Virus record (IMG/VR): IMGVR_UViG_3300042554_002914
From: a virus
Lineage: Duplodnaviria > Heunggongvirae > Uroviricota > Caudoviricetes
DNA length: 64,000 bases
Strand: one strand, 5' to 3'
How positions within the stretch are numbered: the first letter of the stretch is position 1; the number at the start of each line of letters is the position of its first letter. The translations under genes were made by a program, and so were the position numbers. Below, piece by piece: positions 3,492 to 54,176 of this stretch. The notes under the pieces are model-generated. The model ran no database searches and had not been told where the DNA came from. It saw only the letters and a list, made by a program, of their open reading frames with translations.

Positions 3492-4352
3492 TTAAATCAA
3501 AGATAAATCAATACCGTGGGTATCATACCACCACTCTTTTGTTTTATCTGGATGTTTGTCTTTAATCTTCAAGTATCGTGAAGTTATTTTACTTTGCCGG
3601 TTAACTTCGTCAGCAAAAAATTGATGCTCAATAGTTTCCCCACTTTTGTAGAGTTGGCGCAATAATTTACGCAAAACATACTCCTGTTTTTGGTTTCCAG
3701 GTTTATACCCAGACTCTATTATTTTGTAGATGGTTTCCTTTAAAGTTTCCGTTGAACTTTTTACTGGATTCCCTAAAATACTTTCAATTCTTTCCAATCC
3801 GAACCCAACATCAATAAACTGTCCAGATGTATTAACAATGTTACCAATTTCTATTCCATTCTTATAAAATTCAGTGCAGTAACCACCGAGTTCACCATCA
3901 CTCCAGACACATTCTGAATCGTATCTAATTTCCAAATCAGGGTAATCGGAATAAAAATACTTCCAAGAGTCATATTTATCTGGATGTATGGTCACATAAT
4001 CTATTTTAACTTTTAGTATATCATTAAGGAACCTCATCCAAAAATGAATGGTTTGTTGCATCGTCAATTCACCAAAGGAAAAAAGACCCAACATATTAAA
4101 ATACAATAAATGAGACCCATCACCAATTTCATCTAAATCCTGTAGGCGGATGCAAGATTGGCTATTAGCGATAGATGTATTATCTGGATTTTTAAACTTG
4201 TCCTTAAACTGTTGCATTCCAGCAGGACAAAATAGGGTAGTGTCGTCATAAGGCTTCACGCTATCGTCCACCTTAAATGAAATGTTATTACTCTCGCAAT
4301 AACTCCGGTACAGGTCTACTACTTCAGTCATTTTTAACGTATGATGAGCCAT
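3492..4352 (-). CDS. alanyl-tRNA synthetase catalytic-core homolog (aminoacylation domain only, 286 aa)
   Basis: TTLFCPAGMQQFKDKF aligns with AlaRS DPTLLFTNAGMNQFKDVF. LGLFSFGE aligns with LGNFSFGD. VGFGLERI aligns with DTGMGLERI. EYVLRKLLRQL aligns with GYVLRRIIRRA. There are no tRNA-recognition, editing or C-Ala domains. Confidence 0.75.
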   Translation of the reverse strand: MAHHTLKMTEVVDLYRSYCESNNISFKVDDSVKPYDDTTLFCPAGMQQFKDKFKNPDNTSIANSQSCIRLQDLDEIGDGSHLLYFNMLGLFSFGELTMQQTIHFWMRFLNDILKVKIDYVTIHPDKYDSWKYFYSDYPDLEIRYDSECVWSDGELGGYCTEFYKNGIEIGNIVNTSGQFIDVGFGLERIESILGNPVKSSTETLKETIYKIIESGYKPGNQKQEYVLRKLLRQLYKSGETIEHQFFADEVNRQSKITSRYLKIKDKHPDKTKEWWYDTHGIDLSLI

Positions 4353-13873: not shown

Positions 13874-15328
13874 TTACCCCGAAACCCTGCCATCACTAAT
13901 CATTATGCCTTCACTTACCAATAATTCCCGAATCCTATCTGCCTCCTCATAATCACGATTAGCCCTTGCTATGTTGCGCATTTCAATTAGTGCCTGAATT
14001 TCATCGCTTTTTGGTTTTTGAGGCTCGGAAACCTCATGAACCAGTCCCAAAATCCCAGCTAATTCACATAAGAGCCCCCAACGATTTAGAATTTCCCTAT
14101 TTTCATCGCCTGCTGATACAATGGGGCGAGCCAAATAGAATAATTCGCTGATGGCCACAGACGTATTAAGATCATCATTGAGTGCCGAAATGAAGCGGTC
14201 TCGGCTATTTTTTAAGTCTGTAGTTAAAATCAAGGGTTCATTCGTTTGCTGACTAATCCCGTGCCGACTAATTCCATTCCGGCTAGCCCCATGCCAACTA
14301 TCACCATGCCAACCAAACCCCAATGCAGCATTTAATACTTTCCAACCATTGATCGCGGGTATCATTGCCTCTGAATTAAAATCTATCGGCTTCCTGTAAT
14401 GGGCTTGTAATACGAATAACCTAATGGTCATGGGACTAATGCCGGATCCAATTAGGTCTCTAATGGTTGTAAAATTCCCTAGGGATTTAGCCATTTTTTC
14501 TTCACCAACCGTGACAAACCCGTTATGAAGCCAATACCTGGCTAGTTCAGCCCCATTGGCAGCCTCAGATTGGGCGATCTCGTTTTCGTGGTGGGGAAAG
14601 ATCAGATCGGCTCCACCCAAATGAATGTCAATTGTCTCACCTAGTTCTTCCCTAATCATAGCCGAACATTCGATATGCCATCCGGGTCGTCCCCACCCCC
14701 AGGGTGACGGAAAGCCGGGTTCACTCGCCATGGCACTCTTCCAAAGAGCAAAATCAAAAGGGTGGCCCTTCTTTGAGTCGCTATTAACTTGTTGTTGGCC
14801 AAGGTTGCGACCACTTAGTTTCCCGTACCCCTTAAACCCTGTAACCGAGAAGTACATATCCCCGCCCATAGAATAAGCAAATCCCTTATCGGCAAGGTCT
14901 TGAATCATGGCGCGGATTGCATCGAGACTACGGGTAACCCTTGGCATTTTGTCGGCAGGCAGGATGTTCAATGCGCCCATATCCTCCTCAAAGGCCTTAA
15001 TATTACGCTCACTGACGGCCCCGATTGTTGTTCCTTCAGAGTTGGCTTTGGCTAGAATTTTATCATCGATATCCGTATAATTCTGAACAAACGTAACCTC
15101 ATACCCATGCCACATAAAATTACGCCTTAAGACATCCCACACGATATAACTACGGGCGTGCCCTAAGTGGCATAAATCGTAAACGGTAACACCGCAGCAG
15201 TAAATCGAGACCTTGCCTGGAACCAGCGGAGTAAACTTCTCCTTGGCTTTAGTAAGGGTGTTGGTTAGGGTAATGTCGTTAATCATTGTATTTTGTAAGG
15301 TCAATATCCCCATGTCAATCCTTGTCAA
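13874..15328 (-). CDS. cysS: cysteinyl-tRNA synthetase
   Basis: The class-I HIGH motif (CHLGHARSY) and the KMSKS motif (KMAKSLGN) are both present. The protein is 484 aa. Confidence 0.9.
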
Positions 15329-29112: not shown

Positions 29113-29154
29113 TTACCTTAATATAACCAAGATGTAACCCCCAGGGATTACAAA

Positions 29155-29243
29155 GGAAGAAGGGGGATTCGAACCCCCGGAGCCGCGAAAGCGACTCTGC
29201 AGTTTTCAAGACTGCCGCTATCAGCCACTCAGCCACTCTTCCA
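29155..29243 (-). tRNA. tRNA-Ser (anticodon UGA), type II with a long variable arm
   Basis: The reverse complement gives acceptor GGAAGAG, anticodon stem GCAGU/ACUGC and loop CUUGAAA. The variable arm is long. The T-arm is GGGGGUUCGAAUCCCCC. CCA is not encoded. Confidence 0.85.
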
Positions 29244-30140: not shown

Positions 30141-30544
30141 GGTTGGAGGGGGTGGGGTAGCCTACCCTGAATTTTACCCCCCCGTTCATTAACCTTTCAA
30201 ATTAGATTTGGCAAGGTCTAATGCAATCCAGTTTTTCAGGGTTTGAAGACTGCGAATTTTTGCCTGAAGGTGTGATAATCCCTCTTCGGAAAAAGACTCA
30301 GGACATAACTCTCGTTCAGCAATTAGTTCCCCTGCATACATTTCAAGGGCTTCGATTGCGAGTTCTTTATCTTGTTTGGAAATTAGTGACATGGCCTATG
30401 AGTTGAAACCTTTGGGTGCGTTAATTAGCTTGGTGTTTGCCATTTTTTTTATAGTTGTTAGCGTAGGTTGTTAGCGTAGATTGCTAATGCAGGTTGTTAA
30501 TGCAATGAGTACAAACCCTGGCCATTATTACCCATTGTCAAATA

Positions 30545-30632
30545 GGCGTGTAGGGAGTCGAACCCTAACTAGCCGGTAATCTGCCGGAGTGGCCTTCATA
30601 AGGGGCCCTGTGCTACCGTACACCACACGCCC
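30545..30632 (-). tRNA. type-II tRNA (long variable arm) with a noncanonical anticodon arm; anticodon ambiguous (UAU if the stem is 4 bp plus a C.A mismatch)
   Basis: Acceptor GGGCGUG, U8, D-stem GUGU/GCAC and T-arm UAGGG-UUCGACU-CCCUA are canonical. The variable arm is a hairpin, CCGGCAGAUUACCGG. The anticodon region is GGCCC-CUUAUGA-AGGCC, which can also be read as a 9-nt loop. Confidence 0.6.
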
Positions 30633-31047: not shown

Positions 31048-31119
31048 CACCCTGAGAGGGATTTGAACCCCCGACCGACGACTTAGAAGGTCGCTGCTCT
31101 TCCACTGAGCTACCAGGGC
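31048..31119 (-). tRNA. tRNA-Arg (anticodon UCU)
   Basis: D-arm is GCUC-AGUGGAA-GAGC. Anticodon stem-loop is GCGAC-CUUCUAA-GUCGU. T-arm is GGGGG-UUCAAAU-CCCUC. The acceptor has G.U pairs. Confidence 0.8.
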
Positions 31120-32854: not shown

Positions 32855-33301
32855 TCAGAAAGTCAAGACACGGAATGGCCGTACTTTAAATCTAAAAAGT
32901 TTAGGGACAACATCCGCATAATTTTGGCGGACATTCACCGCATGTGCGTCCAAGAAATTAAATTCAGATGAACTCCAATAGCTGTGGTTGTCACCGAAGA
33001 ACTTAGGAATTTGTTTGTGTGCTAGGAGCAGAAGGTCTTTTGACGGAATGAACCATTCTGGGTCTGCCAATCCAAAGGTCCTACTCATTATATCACTCCA
33101 ACTAGACTCAAACTCCCTTTCCTTGGAGCAAACGACAATAGCGTGATTGTCTCCCTTAACCAAGACGATGCTTCCATCTTCAAGTACGTCCCCTACCTGG
33201 GTATCGGAAACTTTTTTGTAGTTGCGTAGGTCTTGCCTTAGGGTTTCTAGTTGTCTTTCGGTTTCTTGAATTTTTTGAGTGATGCCAGTCAAACGATCCA
33301 T
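32855..33301 (-). CDS. DUF1566-like protein (paralog of the C-terminus of 5859..6539)
   Basis: VGDVLEDGSIV and SYWSSSEF are shared with the paralog. Confidence 0.45.
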   Translation of the reverse strand: MDRLTGITQKIQETERQLETLRQDLRNYKKVSDTQVGDVLEDGSIVLVKGDNHAIVVCSKEREFESSWSDIMSRTFGLADPEWFIPSKDLLLLAHKQIPKFFGDNHSYWSSSEFNFLDAHAVNVRQNYADVVPKLFRFKVRPFRVLTF

Positions 33302-36994: not shown

Positions 36995-37109
36995 ATGGGA
37001 CCGGCAGGATTTGAACCTACAACCTCTCCTTTATCATAGGAATTTTAATTGCTGATGTATCTTTGACAAGATAACTTTCTTTAGCGCTCTGTCGTTGAGC
37101 TATGGTCCC
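36995..37109 (-). ncRNA. tRNA-like RNA gene in which a roughly 40-nt insertion replaces the anticodon arm
   Basis: Minus-strand reading is GGGACCA-UA-GCUC-AACGACA-GAGC, then the insertion, then GUAGG-UUCAAAU-CCUGC-CGGUCCC-A. The insertion holds a UAUCUU-GUCA-AAGAUA hairpin and the motif CAGCAAUUAAAAUUCC. No canonical 7-nt anticodon loop is present. Confidence 0.5.
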
Positions 37110-37216: not shown

Positions 37217-37346
37217 TCGAAGAGGCAAGATTCGAACTTGCGTATGGCGGTTCCTTTTAGCGTATTGGGGTATTGCTGAACTATCTAAGGTATCACTAGA
37301 TGGTCTTTTTGCATTACCGCTGCCTTACCCACTTGGCTACTCTTCG
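37217..37346 (-). ncRNA. tRNA-like RNA gene with a roughly 57-nt insertion between anticodon-stem halves GCGGU/ACCGC
   Basis: CGAAGAG-UA-GCC-AAGUGGGUAA-GGC-A-GCGGU precedes the insertion, which holds an AUCUAG..UUAGAU hairpin and CAGCAAUACC. ACCGC-CAUAC-GCAAG-UUCGAAU-CUUGC-CUCUUCG-A follows it. Confidence 0.5.
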
Positions 37347-37592: not shown

Positions 37593-37710
37593 TAGGGGAA
37601 GAAGGAATCGAACCTCCGTCACGTCCGTATGATGGAATTTTTGTAATTGCTGTCTGCACCTTATTCAAGGTAACCGTTAATTACGTGTGCTGCCACCGCA
37701 CTATTCCCCT
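37593..37710 (-). ncRNA. tRNA-like RNA gene in which a roughly 43-nt insertion replaces the anticodon arm
   Basis: AGGGGAA-UA-GUGC-GGUGGCA-GCAC-A precedes the insertion, which holds a UUACCUU-GAAU-AAGGUG hairpin and CAGCAAUUACAAAAAUUCC. GGAGG-UUCGAUU-CCUUC-UUCCCCU-A follows, with a perfect 7-bp acceptor. Confidence 0.5.
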
Positions 37711-52049: not shown

Positions 52050-53219
52050 CTACCGGATCCCAAGCAGTTTGTCAAGTTGTTGGGGCCGTAGGTCTGCTAG
52101 CCACTGCCGGAAGGTAGGGTACCTACCGGAGCGTATTGCGAAACAGGCTGCCGATACCGAGGGGGCATCTTTGAGAATTGCAATGGCGAATTCCTTTTGC
52201 GTTAAGGCTCCATACTTATGAAGCATCATCTCACATAAAGATTGCATCGCAGGGATAGCAGAGTCCAGATGAATCGAAAACTTATCTCTATATTCAGGGA
52301 AGTGCAATAGGAACTCTTCCAAGTCGTCATTAAGGAACAATTCCGAAAAGTCAGGCTCGCCATTATTCCATGCCCGGTGTAGTTGGCAGTATAACCTAGA
52401 CTTAATCTTAACCCTTCCAACCCCATCAAACAATACATAACCTTCATGATTTGAATCTCGCTTTTCAACTTTGGTAAGTACAGAGTCAAGGTCACTGAAT
52501 TCGTAAGATGGGGCCACCACATAGCCATACCACCCAAACTCTTCCAGATCACACTCTTCGAAGTCCTGATCTCGGTCTCGTACTGCTAGTAAGGGAAGTT
52601 TGGGCGCATCGTAGTTAATAACATCTTTATTATCTAGGTGACATAACTCAAAGATGTAGCAAATTGACGGGTCTAGGCATTCCTTTAAGTACCCTACTTT
52701 TTCGAATACATCCCAGAATAATTCATCAAAGGTTTTTTTAGTTTTTCCTACTAGGCCATCCCCTGCTACTGAACCAGAAGTTGAAACGAGCCATTGCCCC
52801 CTATACTCAAACAATTTAATTAAGGAGCCGGAAAATTTCTCATAAACCTTGGTGCGAGACCAATCTAGTTCGTGACAGTAACCTTCCCCAACGTTGAAAA
52901 ATCTATCGAACGCATATGCAACCAAGCGATAGTACGGCGAGTGGTCACCATCGTTATCAACACGCTCGACCACAGCACCACGGCAGGCACAAACCAGCGG
53001 ATTTGATTTGGATGCTAAAATCGTCCCATATTTCAAATTAAAAAGGTTCGGATACCTTTCATCGCGAGTAACACGAATGTCATACTCAGCTAGGGCGTCT
53101 AGGGCATTGTAACCCCTCTCGTTAAGCCAGTCAATCAAGTAGTGGCGCAAGTTTTCCATGGTTGTAGTATAGGTGGTTTTTACTGGCAGGGTAAGGCGGT
53201 TTACCGAACTCATTTCCAA
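52050..53219 (-). CDS. T4 Rnl1-family RNA ligase (tRNA-repair ligase) with a variant motif I
   Basis: CRGAVVE aligns with T4 ECRGIMFE. FDRFFNVGE aligns with MEKFFNLNE. EGYVLFDGVGRVKIKSRLYCQLH aligns with T4 [24 protein letters not shown]. Motif I reads EKFSGSL instead of KEDGSL. Confidence 0.7.
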   Translation of the reverse strand: MEMSSVNRLTLPVKTTYTTTMENLRHYLIDWLNERGYNALDALAEYDIRVTRDERYPNLFNLKYGTILASKSNPLVCACRGAVVERVDNDGDHSPYYRLVAYAFDRFFNVGEGYCHELDWSRTKVYEKFSGSLIKLFEYRGQWLVSTSGSVAGDGLVGKTKKTFDELFWDVFEKVGYLKECLDPSICYIFELCHLDNKDVINYDAPKLPLLAVRDRDQDFEECDLEEFGWYGYVVAPSYEFSDLDSVLTKVEKRDSNHEGYVLFDGVGRVKIKSRLYCQLHRAWNNGEPDFSELFLNDDLEEFLLHFPEYRDKFSIHLDSAIPAMQSLCEMMLHKYGALTQKEFAIAILKDAPSVSAACFAIRSGRYPTFRQWLADLRPQQLDKLLGIR

Positions 53220-53676: not shown

Positions 53677-54176
53677 TTTGTTATAGGTTGATTGAGTGAG
53701 GGGTGAATTGAATAGCTATCGTAACACAAATTGCCCTACCCACGTAGAACAGTGTGCCAGTTGGCCAAGTGTCCACACATGGGTTAGTCTTGTGGCTGTT
53801 TTGCCATGTTCAGTTGTGCAATATGAAGAAGTTTTTCCTTCCTTGCTTTTTGCTTTAGGTAGATAACAAAAGAAATATTCATTTTGCCACCTTCACATTT
53901 TTTGCAAGGGCGATGAGTTTGGTTATACCAATCTGCGTACTCTTGTTTTGCAACATCGGTATCATAAGCGACACCGCGATAGACTGCTTTAGACATTTTT
54001 TTCCTCTATGGTGAAATCATGAGTCCCGTTCCTTCGGAAGGCGATTGCGTTTCTCGTCGTCCTACTTGCGTCCACTGTGTGTTAATAGCGGATGAACGAT
54101 GGTAGTTTAGGTCTCTGATATCTTGTATAGCTTATAATACCCATCTATTTAGAAATCAGGTTCACTCAATACCCCG

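What the first reader, a model, noticed from the sequence alone, without database searches (positions are those of the whole stretch)
30545..30632. Type-II tRNA with a noncanonical anticodon arm (possible UAU anticodon or expanded 9-nt loop)
The acceptor stem, U8, D-arm, long hairpin variable arm and T-arm are all well formed. The anticodon region is GGCCC-CUUAUGA-AGGCC. This gives either a 4-bp stem closed by a C.A mismatch with loop CUUAUGA, which yields anticodon UAU and reads AUA, or a GGCC/GGCC stem with a 9-nt loop. A long-variable-arm scaffold (Leu, Ser or Tyr-like identity) carrying an Ile-type UAU anticodon, or an expanded loop, is unusual. It could indicate a recoding or mis-incorporating tRNA, or a suppressor or frameshift tRNA.
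Basis: seen in the sequence. Interest (0 to 1): 0.55.

Follow-up and report, generated by a model that had tools for sequence, protein, structure and literature searches.

The report
Phage AUA-reading tRNA with second anticodon-like arm
The odd tRNA is a real, conserved phage gene that reads the rare isoleucine codon AUA with a normal 7-base anticodon loop, and its "long variable arm" is a second anticodon-like hairpin that always displays GAU, the anticodon of the main isoleucine tRNA, which may be how the host enzyme is persuaded to load it with isoleucine.

Summary
A 90-nt tRNA lies on the minus strand at 30543-30632, with anticodon UAU, a C31.A39 mismatch, G37, A73 and a 15-nt extra hairpin. 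It is not a one-off, a frameshift tRNA or a Leu/Ser/Tyr scaffold. It belongs to a large phage family: 78 unique sequences from 184 IMG/VR and metagenome loci, plus four cultured phages of Synechococcus, Sinorhizobium and Stenotrophomonas.

Every stem covaries (19 of 25 pairs have compensatory changes). The 31.39 position is a standard pair in 62% of members, so the loop is 7 nt, and A37 is the norm. All members have UAU and A73.

The extra arm is a 3-5 bp covarying stem with a 7-nt loop whose centre is GAU in 76 of 78 members (GAC in 2). It is followed by a 5-nt linker, like a canonical anticodon arm followed by its variable loop. Ordinary Ser/Leu/Tyr tRNAs in the same contigs have nothing similar.

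AUA is rare in this phage (10% of Ile codons) and sits at Ile-, Leu- or Val-type sites, not at Leu-only or Ser sites.

My best reading is an Ile-accepting AUA decoder whose GAU arm substitutes for the anticodon determinant that ordinary bacterial IleRS reads poorly in UAU. That mechanism is inferred, not shown. I found no published description.

The parts
30543..30632 (-). Whole tRNA gene (90 nt, no encoded CCA). A member of the 'two-armed' phage tRNA(UAU) family.
   Evidence: ARAGORN. The family covariance model R1 scores it 101.4 bits, E = 1e-22. Syntenic homologues are present in L001-L005.
30626..30632 (-). Acceptor stem, 5' strand (GGGCGUG). It pairs with 30544-30550 (CACGCCU). The first pair is G1.U72.
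   Evidence: All 7 pairs covary in alignment A3. G1.U72 occurs in 47 of 78 unique family members.
30610..30623 (-). D arm: stem GUGU/GCAC with the 6-nt loop ACGGUA, which contains the conserved GG.
   Evidence: 3 of 4 pairs have compensatory changes. GG is at least 90% conserved in the 52-sequence alignment A2.
30591..30607 (-). Arm 1, the decoding anticodon arm: GGCCC-CUUAUGA-AGGCC. It has a C31.A39 mismatch, U33, anticodon UAU (30598-30600), G37 and A38.
   Evidence: Pair 29-41 is C-G, U-A or A-U in close relatives, which is compensatory change. UAU is invariant, including in the scan that left the anticodon unconstrained.
30573..30587 (-). Arm 2, the 'variable arm': CCGG-CAGAUUA-CCGG. It is a 7-nt loop with GAU at its centre (30579-30581).
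   Evidence: All 4 stem pairs covary. There are 27 distinct stems. Loop positions 3-5 are G (78/78), A (78/78) and U (76/78). In the scan that left this loop unconstrained, 54 of 56 had GAU and 2 had GAC.
30568..30572 (-). 5-nt linker (CUAGU) between arm 2 and the T stem. This is the length of a canonical variable loop.
   Evidence: The linker is 5 nt in 67 of 78 unique members.
30551..30567 (-). T arm: UAGGG-UUCGACU-CCCUA.
   Evidence: It is invariant in the scanned set by design of the search patterns. It differs in the four cultured-phage members.
30543..30550 (-). Acceptor stem, 3' strand (30544-30550), and discriminator A73 (30543).
   Evidence: A73 is present in 78 of 78 members and in the four cultured-phage members.
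31048..31119 (-). Context: neighbouring phage tRNA-Arg(UCU). It is syntenic with the UAU tRNA in relatives.
29154..29242 (-). Context: neighbouring ordinary class II tRNA-Ser(UGA). It provides an in-window contrast for a normal variable arm.

Best explanation
The locus is a functional, phage-encoded elongator tRNA that decodes the rare codon AUA with a normal 7-nt anticodon loop and the anticodon UAU. It belongs to a widespread phage family with two anticodon-like arms.

Arm 1 sits directly after the D arm. It has the hallmarks of a decoding loop: Y32, U33, UAU, R37.

Arm 2 sits where a class II variable arm would be, but it is built like a second anticodon arm. It has a 3-5 bp stem, a 7-nt loop and then a 5-nt 'variable loop' before the T stem. 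It always presents GAU, the anticodon of the major tRNA-Ile, without U33 or a purine at position 37.

The most likely mechanism runs as follows. The host IleRS reads G34-A35-U36 as its main determinants, and the ordinary bacterial enzyme handles a UAU anticodon about 100-fold worse. I propose that IleRS is given the GAU triplet on arm 2, together with A73, so the tRNA is charged with isoleucine. The ribosome then uses arm 1 to read AUA without needing the host lysidine (TilS) pathway.

Shown: the gene is real, the family exists, the structure and covariation hold, GAU and UAU are invariant and linked, and AUA sites in the phage are not Leu-only or Ser.
Inferred: Ile charging (about 0.65) and the role of arm 2 as an IleRS determinant (about 0.35-0.4).

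The overall confidence of 0.5 is for the statement as a whole. For the sub-claims: a real, functional AUA-decoding tRNA with a 7-nt loop is about 0.85-0.9.

The window's own quirks, C31.A39 and G37 instead of A37, are traits of its subclade and are not explained.
For: Reality and conservation:
- ARAGORN calls the gene.
- Syntenic homologues sit between tRNA-Arg(UCU) and a glycosyltransferase gene in L001-L005, with the tRNA body conserved and the flanks diverged.
- The family comprises 78 unique sequences from 184 loci, with 36 different acceptor stems.
- Covariation: 97.3% of cells paired, 19 of 25 pairs compensatory, 0 of 500 shuffles reach the observed values, and slid controls pair 38-48%.

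7-nt loop: 31.39 is a standard pair in 62% of members. The loop consensus is CUUAUAA. G37 occurs only in the window subclade plus L075 and L090.

Linkage of GAU and UAU, tested in both directions:
- The scan that left the V loop unconstrained gave 54 of 56 GAU and 2 GAC.
- The scan that left the anticodon unconstrained gave 32 of 32 UAU.
- Four cultured phages with different T arms show the same design: UAU, CAGAUUA or CCGAUUA, and A73.
- 214 ordinary class II tRNAs from the same loci lack such a loop.

Geometry: the 3' linker is 5 nt in 67 of 78 members. After deleting arm 2 in silico, ARAGORN of 78 tRNA-Ile(tat). After deleting arm 1, it of 78 tRNA-Ile(gat).

Codon evidence: AUA is 10% of Ile codons. 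AUA sites align with Ile, Leu or Val columns, unlike CUA/UUA.

Literature:
- E. coli IleRS charges tRNAIle2(UAU) at about 1% of the LAU form, with a LAU/UAU kcat/Km ratio of 360 (PMC3575796).
- G34, A35 and U36 are key IleRS determinants (bioRxiv 10.64898/2026.02.03.703510).

The neighbouring tRNA-Arg(UCU) fits a phage set of tRNAs for codons ending in A or U.
Against: - There is no experimental charging or decoding data.
- In a standard L-shaped tRNA, a variable arm points away from where IleRS binds the anticodon. Arm 2 could therefore reach the anticodon pocket only in an alternative stacking or a non-canonical complex. This is untested.
- Arm 2 lacks A37 and usually has U at that place. 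t6A37 matters for E. coli IleRS.
- The window's own tRNA has G37, so it cannot carry t6A37.
- A73 plus a long arm is also compatible with LeuRS in principle, and the codon-partner analysis shows more Leu-type AUA sites than is seen for AUU/AUC.
- Rfam's tRNA model does not reach its threshold at this locus.
- All large scans fixed either the T arm or one loop motif, so family-wide frequencies are conditional on those patterns. Only four members with other T arms were examined.
Confidence: 0.5

Rival explanations
1. It is an Ile-accepting AUA decoder, but arm 2 is not an IleRS determinant. Under this reading the GAU loop binds some other conserved factor, such as a modification enzyme acting on U34, a processing enzyme, or a host tRNA-targeting nuclease for which it acts as a decoy. 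Alternatively it makes an intramolecular tertiary contact.
For: The loop is conserved across phages of cyanobacteria, alpha-proteobacteria and gamma-proteobacteria, so the partner must be universal, but IleRS is not the only universal factor. The arm lacks U33 and A37. Canonical geometry disfavours IleRS contact (inference). The window phage invests in tRNA repair, carrying Rnl1- and Rnl2-type ligases.
Against: No dedicated protein neighbour is conserved across lineages; the best candidate is present in 8 of 36. No complementary motif for GAU was evident elsewhere in the tRNA by inspection. The exclusive pairing of GAU with a UAU anticodon, and the anticodon-arm-like geometry, are most simply connected through isoleucine identity.
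Confidence: 0.25
2. It is a Leu-accepting mis-incorporator, working like the nematode nev-tRNA(UAU). LeuRS ignores the anticodon and charges this long-arm, A73 tRNA, so AUA is read partly as Leu.
For: A73 is invariant. There is a precedent: class II nev-tRNAIle(UAU) is charged with Leu in vitro (PMC3333845 and PMC4300185, abstracts). About a third of well-sampled AUA sites are Leu-dominant in relatives.
Against: Four of nine well-sampled AUA sites are Ile-dominant, whereas true Leu codons pair with Ile only 3-4% of the time. The excess of Leu partners is expected anyway, because AUA is one mutation away from UUA and CUA and is itself rare. The D loop is 4-6 nt, unlike the large D loop of bacterial tRNA-Leu, whose G18G19 placement is an identity element (established knowledge). 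An invariant GAU loop has no role in LeuRS recognition.
Confidence: 0.12
3. It is an allo-tRNA-like or non-translational RNA. Under this reading it is a relative of the allo-tRNA(UAU) group of Mukai et al. 2017, which is Ser-charged or not used in translation and acts as a regulator or decoy.
For: [quoted passage not shown] The window's own sequence can be drawn as 8/4. Some family members have a Sec-like D tetraloop.
Against: Position 8 is A, G or C in 46 of 78 members and cannot pair with A65, so 8/4 is not conserved. A73 is invariant, whereas allo-tRNAs have G73 or U73. This family sits in phage tRNA clusters of freshwater, marine and soil phages, not in acidobacterial toxin-antitoxin or transposon loci. 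Arm 1 keeps the features of a decoding loop (U33, UAU, R37).
Confidence: 0.08
4. It is an expanded (9-nt) anticodon-loop tRNA that reads a quadruplet or causes frameshifting, or it is a decaying pseudogene.
For: In the window, C31.A39 leaves only 4 Watson-Crick pairs, and the MFE fold shows a 9-nt loop. Mismatches at 31.39 occur in 38% of family members.
Against: 31.39 is a standard pair in 62% of members, including the close relative L028, which has C-G. The loop consensus is the canonical CUUAUAA. Strong purifying selection and covariation argue against a pseudogene.
Confidence: 0.03

Closest known systems
Bacterial tRNA-Ile(UAU), e.g. Mycoplasma mobile tRNAIle2(UAU) (Taniguchi et al. 2013, PMC3575796), and standard-length phage tRNA-Ile(UAU)
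   Same: The UAU anticodon reads AUA without lysidine. The loop consensus CUUAUAA and A73 match. It faces the same problem that an ordinary IleRS reads U34 poorly.
   Different: Known examples are 73-77 nt with a 4-5-nt variable loop and depend on an adapted IleRS (Arg865 in M. mobile). This family adds a whole extra hairpin displaying GAU. It occurs in phages of hosts whose IleRS was not examined here. The window copy has G37 rather than A37.
Nematode nev-tRNAIle(UAU) (Hamashima et al. 2012, PMC3333845)
   Same: It is a long-arm (class II-like) tRNA carrying the Ile anticodon UAU.
   Different: It is eukaryotic, derived from tRNA-Leu and charged with Leu. No GAU-centred 7-nt loop is known from what I could read. 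The phage arm is followed by a 5-nt linker and its D loop is small.
allo-tRNA(UAU) (Mukai et al. 2017, PMC5389517)
   Same: A UAU anticodon combined with a long extra arm and, in some members, a tetraloop D arm. It was found in metagenomes.
   Different: Allo-tRNAs are defined by 8/4 or 9/3 acceptor/T stems and mostly have G73 or U73 (Ser identity). They come from soil Acidobacteria, lie near toxin-antitoxin or transposon genes, and tested inactive. This family is 7/5 with A73 and sits in phage tRNA clusters.
Ordinary class II tRNAs (Leu, Ser, Tyr)
   Same: Overall length of 85-92 nt and a hairpin between the anticodon arm and the T arm.
   Different: Their variable-arm loops are 3-6 nt, mostly GNRA or UUCG, with a short 3' linker. 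Their anticodons are for Leu, Ser or Tyr, and there is no conserved loop triplet.
Archaeal LeuRS recognition of the variable-arm tip (Pyrococcus horikoshii LeuRS-tRNALeu structure; recalled, not checked here)
   Same: It is a precedent for the C-terminal domain of a class Ia synthetase reading bases at the tip of a long variable arm.
   Different: It involves a different enzyme and different bases. No such contact is known for IleRS.

Membership tests
tRNA (generic cloverleaf; Rfam RF00005 / ARAGORN) | Cloverleaf with acceptor, D, anticodon and T arms, supported by covariation | tested here: met
   ARAGORN calls it. 19 of 25 pairs are compensatory and 97.3% of cells pair.
tRNA (generic cloverleaf; Rfam RF00005 / ARAGORN) | Reaches the Rfam RF00005 gathering score (29 bits) | tested here: not met
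   It is not listed at gathering threshold. In E-value mode only tRNA-Sec is reported, at 22.8 bits against the 47 needed. The atypical D arm, the extra arm and the 31.39 mismatch lower the score.
tRNA-Ile(UAU) (AUA decoder) | 7-nt anticodon loop with U33, anticodon UAU and A38 | tested here: met
   The loop is CUUAUGA in the window. The family consensus is CUUAUAA, and 31.39 pairs in 62% of members.
tRNA-Ile(UAU) (AUA decoder) | A37, the site of t6A and an IleRS determinant in E. coli | tested here: not met
   The window has G37. A37 is present in most of the family (70 of 78 unique loops).
tRNA-Ile(UAU) (AUA decoder) | Discriminator A73 | tested here: met
   78 of 78 members, plus the four cultured-phage members.
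tRNA-Ile(UAU) (AUA decoder) | Short (4-5 nt) variable loop, i.e. class I architecture | tested here: not met
   A 15-nt hairpin plus linkers (23 nt in total) lies between arm 1 and the T stem.
tRNA-Ile(UAU) (AUA decoder) | Charged with isoleucine by IleRS | not testable with these tools
   The evidence is only indirect. AUA sites in the phage are not Leu-only or Ser. The identity elements for Ser, Tyr and Leu fit poorly (inference).
Class II tRNA of Leu/Ser/Tyr type | Anticodon for Leu, Ser or Tyr | tested here: not met
   The anticodon is UAU in every member, including the scan that left the anticodon unconstrained.
Class II tRNA of Leu/Ser/Tyr type | Variable arm with a short (3-6 nt), non-conserved loop | tested here: not met
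   This arm has a 7-nt loop with central GAU. The 214 control class II tRNAs have GAAA, GCAA, UUCG and similar loops. The 5-nt 3' linker (67 of 78) is longer than I recall for class II tRNAs; the controls' linkers were not measured.
allo-tRNA (Mukai et al. 2017) | 8/4 or 9/3 acceptor/T-stem configuration | tested here: inconclusive
   The window sequence can be drawn as 8/4, with U8 pairing A65. In the family, however, position 8 is A, G or C in 46 of 78 members and cannot make that pair. 7/5 is therefore the conserved fold.
allo-tRNA (Mukai et al. 2017) | G73 or U73 discriminator (Ser identity) in most members | tested here: not met
   A73 in 78 of 78 members.
Frameshift-suppressor / expanded-anticodon-loop tRNA | Conserved 8- or 9-nt anticodon loop | tested here: not met
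   31.39 is a standard pair in 62% of unique members and is C-G in the close relative L028.
tRNA-Sec | UCA anticodon, 8/5 fold, 6-bp D stem, and the Rfam RF01852 gathering score | tested here: not met
   It scores 22.8 bits against the 47 needed. The anticodon is UAU.

The most novel reading that the evidence does not exclude
Decoding and identity are carried by two separate anticodon-like arms of one tRNA. Host IleRS reads the GAU on arm 2, perhaps in an alternative stacking in which arm 2 takes the anticodon-arm position and arm 1 bulges out. The ribosome reads AUA with the UAU on arm 1. If so, phages of many bacterial phyla have a portable way to decode AUA that is independent of TilS and lysidine and of any adaptation of IleRS. 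It would also be a natural example of a tRNA identity element moved to an auxiliary arm.
Probability: 0.3. Interest if true: 0.9.

Novelty: new variant of a known kind. Interest (0 to 1): 0.72.

Why it matters
AUA is the hardest sense codon for bacteria. It normally needs a dedicated tRNA whose C34 is converted to lysidine, because a plain UAU anticodon is both badly charged by IleRS and prone to read AUG.

A widespread phage tRNA that keeps UAU and always carries an extra hairpin showing GAU suggests a natural solution to the charging problem. It would be the first case I know of where an anticodon-type identity element is displayed on an auxiliary arm.

This is directly testable, because cultured phage-host pairs exist (Stenotrophomonas phage DLP_6, Synechococcus phages S-SRM01 and S-SKS1, Sinorhizobium phage Phosso).

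It would interest tRNA-identity and genetic-code-engineering researchers, since it offers a design for uncoupling decoding from charging. It also matters for annotation. These genes are either labelled plain tRNA-Ile(tat) or missed altogether, as in S-SRM01 and S-SKS1, and Rfam's tRNA model misses the window copy.

Tried and rejected
1. BLAST of the tRNA with flanks, and of the 8-kb neighbourhood, against cultured phages found nothing. The window tRNA alone found only 20-nt T-arm matches. A different family member was needed as query to reach cultured phages.
2. An exact pattern built from the window's D and anticodon arms found nothing in IMG/VR, because even the 99%-related contig differs in the stem.
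3. A GTDB scan with the T-arm/acceptor pattern returned only ordinary tRNA-Val, tRNA-Lys and tRNA-Arg.
4. Single-sequence folding energy is uninformative (z = -0.58).
5. tRNA-Sec and the 8/4 fold were considered because of the Rfam hit. They were rejected on score, on the anticodon and on variation at position 8.
6. An origin as a Ser tRNA with an insertion in the loop (CUU[AU]GAA compared with CUUGAAA of the neighbouring tRNA-Ser) was considered. It was dropped once the family showed CUUAUAA as the norm.
7. A search for a conserved partner protein within 4 kb on either side, across lineages, found none. The best candidate, an HNH-like ORF, is present in 8 of 36 lineages.
8. A MAFFT alignment of all divergent members mis-registered the 5' ends, and the alignment from the covariance-model search pulled in ordinary tRNAs. 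Family statistics were therefore computed from an explicit structural parse and from the clean 18-sequence alignment.
9. The promoter/terminator scan around the gene gave no more sites than shuffled controls.
10. Nine literature searches found no description of a GAU-bearing extra arm.
Full report
**1. The observation**

The window carries three ARAGORN tRNAs, all on the minus strand:
- tRNA-Ser(UGA) at 29154-29242
- the finding, at 30543-30632, called 'tRNA-Ile(tat)', 90 nt
- tRNA-Arg(UCU) at 31048-31119

Read on the minus strand, the finding is:
GGGCGUG-UG-GUGU-ACGGUA-GCAC-AG-GGCCC-CUUAUGA-AGGCC-ACU-CCGG-CAGAUUA-CCGG-CUAGU-UAGGG-UUCGACU-CCCUA-CACGCCU-A.

- a good acceptor stem (with G1.U72), D arm and T arm
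- a hairpin in the variable region
- an anticodon arm with four Watson-Crick pairs closed by C31.A39, and the loop CUUAUGA (U33, UAU, G37, A38)

CCA is not encoded.

Rfam's tRNA model does not reach threshold here. The only hit is tRNA-Sec at 22.8 bits against the 47 needed. The single-sequence folding energy is unremarkable (z = -0.58). The case for a real gene therefore has to come from comparison.

**2. Context**

All long ORFs in the window are on the minus strand. They include a CysRS, a DNA polymerase III beta clamp, Rnl1- and Rnl2-type RNA ligases, a nicotinamide phosphoribosyltransferase, a Ro60/TROVE-like protein and an AlaRS-core fragment. This is a large phage.

- Its closest IMG/VR relative is a 279-kb contig.
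- The nearest cultured relatives of the TROVE-like protein are freshwater Synechococcus phages B3 and B23, at 58% identity.
- A glutamine riboswitch also suggests a cyanobacterial host. This is inference.

**3. It is conserved and belongs to a large family**

Relatives were first found through the neighbouring glycosyltransferase protein. L001-L005 carry a syntenic 90-92-nt tRNA(tat) between tRNA-Arg(UCU) and that gene. The tRNA body is about 95% identical while the flanks diverge. Pair 29-41 switches from C-G to U-A.

Pattern scans then widened the set:
- A 30-mer from the extra arm and T arm found 21 IMG/VR contigs. They show a third state, A-U, at pair 29-41. One member, L028, has C31-G39.
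- A T-arm/acceptor pattern found divergent clades with different D arms, anticodon stems and extra-arm stems.
- An IMG/VR scan requiring only AGAU, a spacer and the T arm also hit the limit.

After parsing, there are 78 unique family sequences from 184 loci. They have 36 different acceptor stems, 42 anticodon-stem versions and 27 extra-arm stems.

On a clean 18-sequence alignment with the cloverleaf-plus-extra-hairpin structure:
- 97.3% of cells pair.
- 19 of 25 pairs show compensatory changes. The other five pairs form the T stem, which was fixed by the search patterns, and one D-stem pair varies on one side only.
- 0 of 500 shuffles reach the observed values.
- Slid controls pair only 38-48%.

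RNAalifold agrees.

**4.

(a) *7-nt or 9-nt loop?* Position 31.39 is a standard pair in 62% of unique members:

| 31.39 state | Count |
|---|---|
| U-A | 21 |
| G-C | 10 |
| U.G | 10 |
| C-G | 4 |
| A-U | 3 |
| C.A | 14 |
| A.A | 11 |
| C.U | 2 |
| U.U | 2 |
| A.C | 1 |

The last five rows are mismatches. The architecture is therefore a 5-bp stem with a 7-nt loop and a tolerated weak closing pair. It is not an expanded loop.

The loop is CUUAUAA in 40 members. Variants occur at positions 32, 37 and 38. G37 occurs only in the window's subclade plus L075 and L090.

(b) *Which scaffold?* All 78 members have A73.
- Position 8 is A in 38, U in 32, G in 5 and C in 3. The 8/4 drawing that Rfam and RNAfold prefer for the window cannot be the conserved fold, so 7/5 is.
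- D arms are small: a 4-bp stem with a 4-6-nt loop containing GG.

(c) *The extra arm.* Framed on its conserved core, it is a 3-5-bp stem closing a 7-nt loop:

| Loop position | Bases (counts) |
|---|---|
| 1 | C 58, U 20 |
| 2 | A 67, U 9, G 2 |
| 3 | G 78 |
| 4 | A 78 |
| 5 | U 76, C 2 |
| 6 | variable (N) |
| 7 | A 53, G 23, U 2 |

The commonest loops are CAGAUUA (32), CAGAUGG (11) and CUGAUUA (7). The last differs at one position from the CUGAUAA loop of bacterial tRNA-Ile(GAU).

The arm is followed by exactly 5 nt before the T stem in 67 of 78 members. That is the arrangement of a canonical anticodon arm followed by its variable loop.

The link between the two loops holds in both directions:
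- In the scan that did not constrain this loop, 54 of 56 unique sequences have GAU and 2 have GAC.
- In the scan that did not constrain the anticodon, 32 of 32 have UAU.

By contrast, 214 unique ordinary Ser/Leu/Tyr tRNAs in the same loci have 3-6-nt variable-arm loops such as GAAA, GCAA and UUCG. None has this motif.

An in silico deletion illustrates the geometry:
- Deleting the extra arm lets ARAGORN of 78 as tRNA-Ile(tat).
- Deleting arm 1 instead lets it of 78 as tRNA-Ile(gat).

Arm 1 keeps the signatures of a decoding loop: U33 in 77 of 78, and a purine at position 37 in all. Arm 2 does not: it has A at the '33' place in 67 of 78 and usually U at '37'. Arm 1 is therefore the decoding arm, and arm 2 is a display of GAU.

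**5. Cultured phages**

Using a common family member as BLAST query found copies with different T arms. These are independent of my search patterns.

| Phage | Accession and position | GenBank annotation | Arm 2 loop | Other |
|---|---|---|---|---|
| Stenotrophomonas phage DLP_6 | KU682439.2, 104738-104829 | tRNA-Ile-TAT | CAGAUUA | A31.A39 |
| Sinorhizobium phage Phosso | PV764938.1, 383344-383436 | tRNA-Ile(tat) | CAGAUUA | |
| Synechococcus phage S-SRM01 | MW015081.1, about 32944-33031 | none | CAGAUUA | |
| Synechococcus phage S-SKS1 | HQ633071.1, 178510-178597 | none | CCGAUUA | |

All four have UAU and A73. The design is therefore shared by phages of cyanobacteria, alpha-proteobacteria and gamma-proteobacteria. 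This implies a partner that is conserved across bacteria.

**6. What amino acid, and is AUA recoded?**

AUA is rare in the window: 64 of 10,152 codons, or 10% of Ile codons. It is not enriched.

I aligned window ORFs codon by codon to related loci.
- AUA sites with many relatives are Ile-dominant (4 sites), Leu-dominant (3-4 sites) or Val-dominant (1 site).
- CUA and UUA sites align with Leu 74-81% of the time and with Ile only 3-4%.
- Ser partners are negligible.

Strict AUA=Leu or AUA=Ser is therefore excluded.

The extra Leu partners, compared with AUU and AUC, are expected. AUA is one substitution away from two Leu codons and is itself rare, so codons recently derived from Leu make up a larger share of the AUA pool. 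This is inference. Partial Leu insertion cannot be excluded.

Identity elements argue by elimination for Ile. This rests on established knowledge of bacterial identity sets:
- SerRS wants G73 and a differently built arm.
- TyrRS wants G34 and U35.
- LeuRS wants A73 but also a large D loop with correctly placed G18G19.
- IleRS wants A73, A35, U36, A37 and A38, plus G34 or lysidine at position 34.

**7. Mechanism proposed**

The literature shows that G34, A35 and U36 are decisive for IleRS. E. coli IleRS charges tRNAIle2(UAU) at about 1% of the lysidine form, with a LAU/UAU kcat/Km ratio of 360. Mycoplasma mobile needed a change in its IleRS (Arg865) to use UAU (PMC3575796).

A phage that brings its own UAU tRNA to read AUA without TilS therefore faces a charging problem in most hosts. 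The invariant GAU on an anticodon-arm-like hairpin, found only together with UAU and A73, is most simply explained as a surrogate anticodon determinant for IleRS.

How it would reach the anticodon-binding domains is unknown. Two options are a non-canonical contact, or an alternative stacking in which arm 2 occupies the anticodon-arm position. The 5-nt linker and the deletion test are compatible with the second option. This step is inference, and I put it at about 0.35-0.4.

No conserved neighbouring protein suggests a dedicated phage partner.

**8. Comparison with known systems**

- *allo-tRNA(UAU)* (Mukai 2017) shares the anticodon and a long arm. It is defined by 8/4 or 9/3 stems, mostly has G73 or U73, comes from soil Acidobacteria near toxin-antitoxin or transposon genes, and tested inactive. 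The defining features are not met here.
- *Nematode nev-tRNAIle(UAU)* works as a Leu mis-incorporator. It remains a rival for function but is not a relative.
- *Standard tRNA-Ile(UAU)* lacks the arm.

Nine literature searches found no description of a GAU-bearing extra arm. The library is not complete. GenBank pipelines already label two instances as plain tRNA-Ile(tat).

**9. Verdict**

The finding is real and more interesting than first proposed, but for a different reason. It is not a frameshift, suppressor or recoding tRNA. It is a member of an apparently undescribed, widespread phage family of AUA-decoding tRNAs with a second anticodon-like arm displaying GAU.

Two window-specific quirks remain unexplained: C31.A39, and G37, which precludes t6A37.

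Caveats:
- Family frequencies are conditional on the search patterns, which fixed the T arm or one loop motif.
- Only four members with other T arms were seen.
- Charging and decoding are untested.

Noticed in passing
window 36996-37109, 37217-37346, 37593-37710 (all minus strand), next to ORF 37997-39499 (minus strand): Three Rfam tRNA hits (38-47 bits) have a normal acceptor, D and T arm but 58-64 nt in place of the anticodon loop. They lie directly beside a Ro60/TROVE-like protein (DUF2828 + DUF7788, phrog_850 'RNA-binding protein'). They look like YrlA-type bacterial or phage Y RNAs, which combine a tRNA-like module with a Ro-binding stem. No Y RNA family in Rfam matched.
   Followed up: partly
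window 54023-54100 (minus strand): A glutamine riboswitch aptamer (RF01739, 46.4 bits, above the gathering score) sits in a phage genome. This is consistent with a cyanobacterial host.
   Followed up: no
window 13874-15328 and 3492-4352 (minus strand): The phage encodes a full-length CysRS (tRNA-synt_1e, E = 3e-122). It also encodes a 286-aa protein matching only the N-terminal catalytic core of AlaRS (tRNA-synt_2c).
   Followed up: no
window 52050-53219 and 44371-45468 (minus strand): There are two RNA ligases, one Rnl1-like and one Rnl2-like. They suggest a tRNA-repair capacity against host anticodon nucleases.
   Followed up: no
window about 30453-30510 (plus-strand coordinates), just 3' of the tRNA on the minus strand: Tandem copies of GTTGTTAGCGTAG, followed by the related GTTGTTAATGCA, lie in the roughly 150-nt non-coding stretch between the tRNA and the next ORF. 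This was seen by eye.
   Followed up: no
L086 398-486 and L094 858-943: In two family members the extra-arm loop carries GAC (CGGACUA, CGGACUG) instead of GAU, while arm 1 keeps UAU. GAC is a valine anticodon.
   Followed up: no
Family-wide: The first acceptor pair is G1.U72 in 47 of 78 unique members and A1-U72 in 7. U72 therefore predominates, which is unusual for bacterial elongator tRNAs and might be an identity or processing feature.
   Followed up: no
L014 13719-13806 (= L015 14266-14353); L172, L238, L193 (tRNA-Met(cat), 83-91 nt); L115 (tRNA-Trp(cca), 84 nt); L261 (tRNA-Arg(ccg), 86 nt): Other phage tRNAs carry long extra arms although their anticodons (Lys UUU, Met/Ile2 CAU, Trp CCA, Arg CCG) belong to class I tRNAs. 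Their arm loops are GNRA-like, not GAU.
   Followed up: no
L044 324-398: A tRNA with anticodon CUA, which ARAGORN labels 'tRNA-Pyl', lies in a phage tRNA cluster. It is a possible amber suppressor.
   Followed up: no
L287 (S-SRM01, MW015081.1 about 32944-33031) and L290 (S-SKS1, HQ633071.1 178510-178597): The family tRNA is present in these two cultured Synechococcus phage genomes but is not annotated in the GenBank records.
   Followed up: yes
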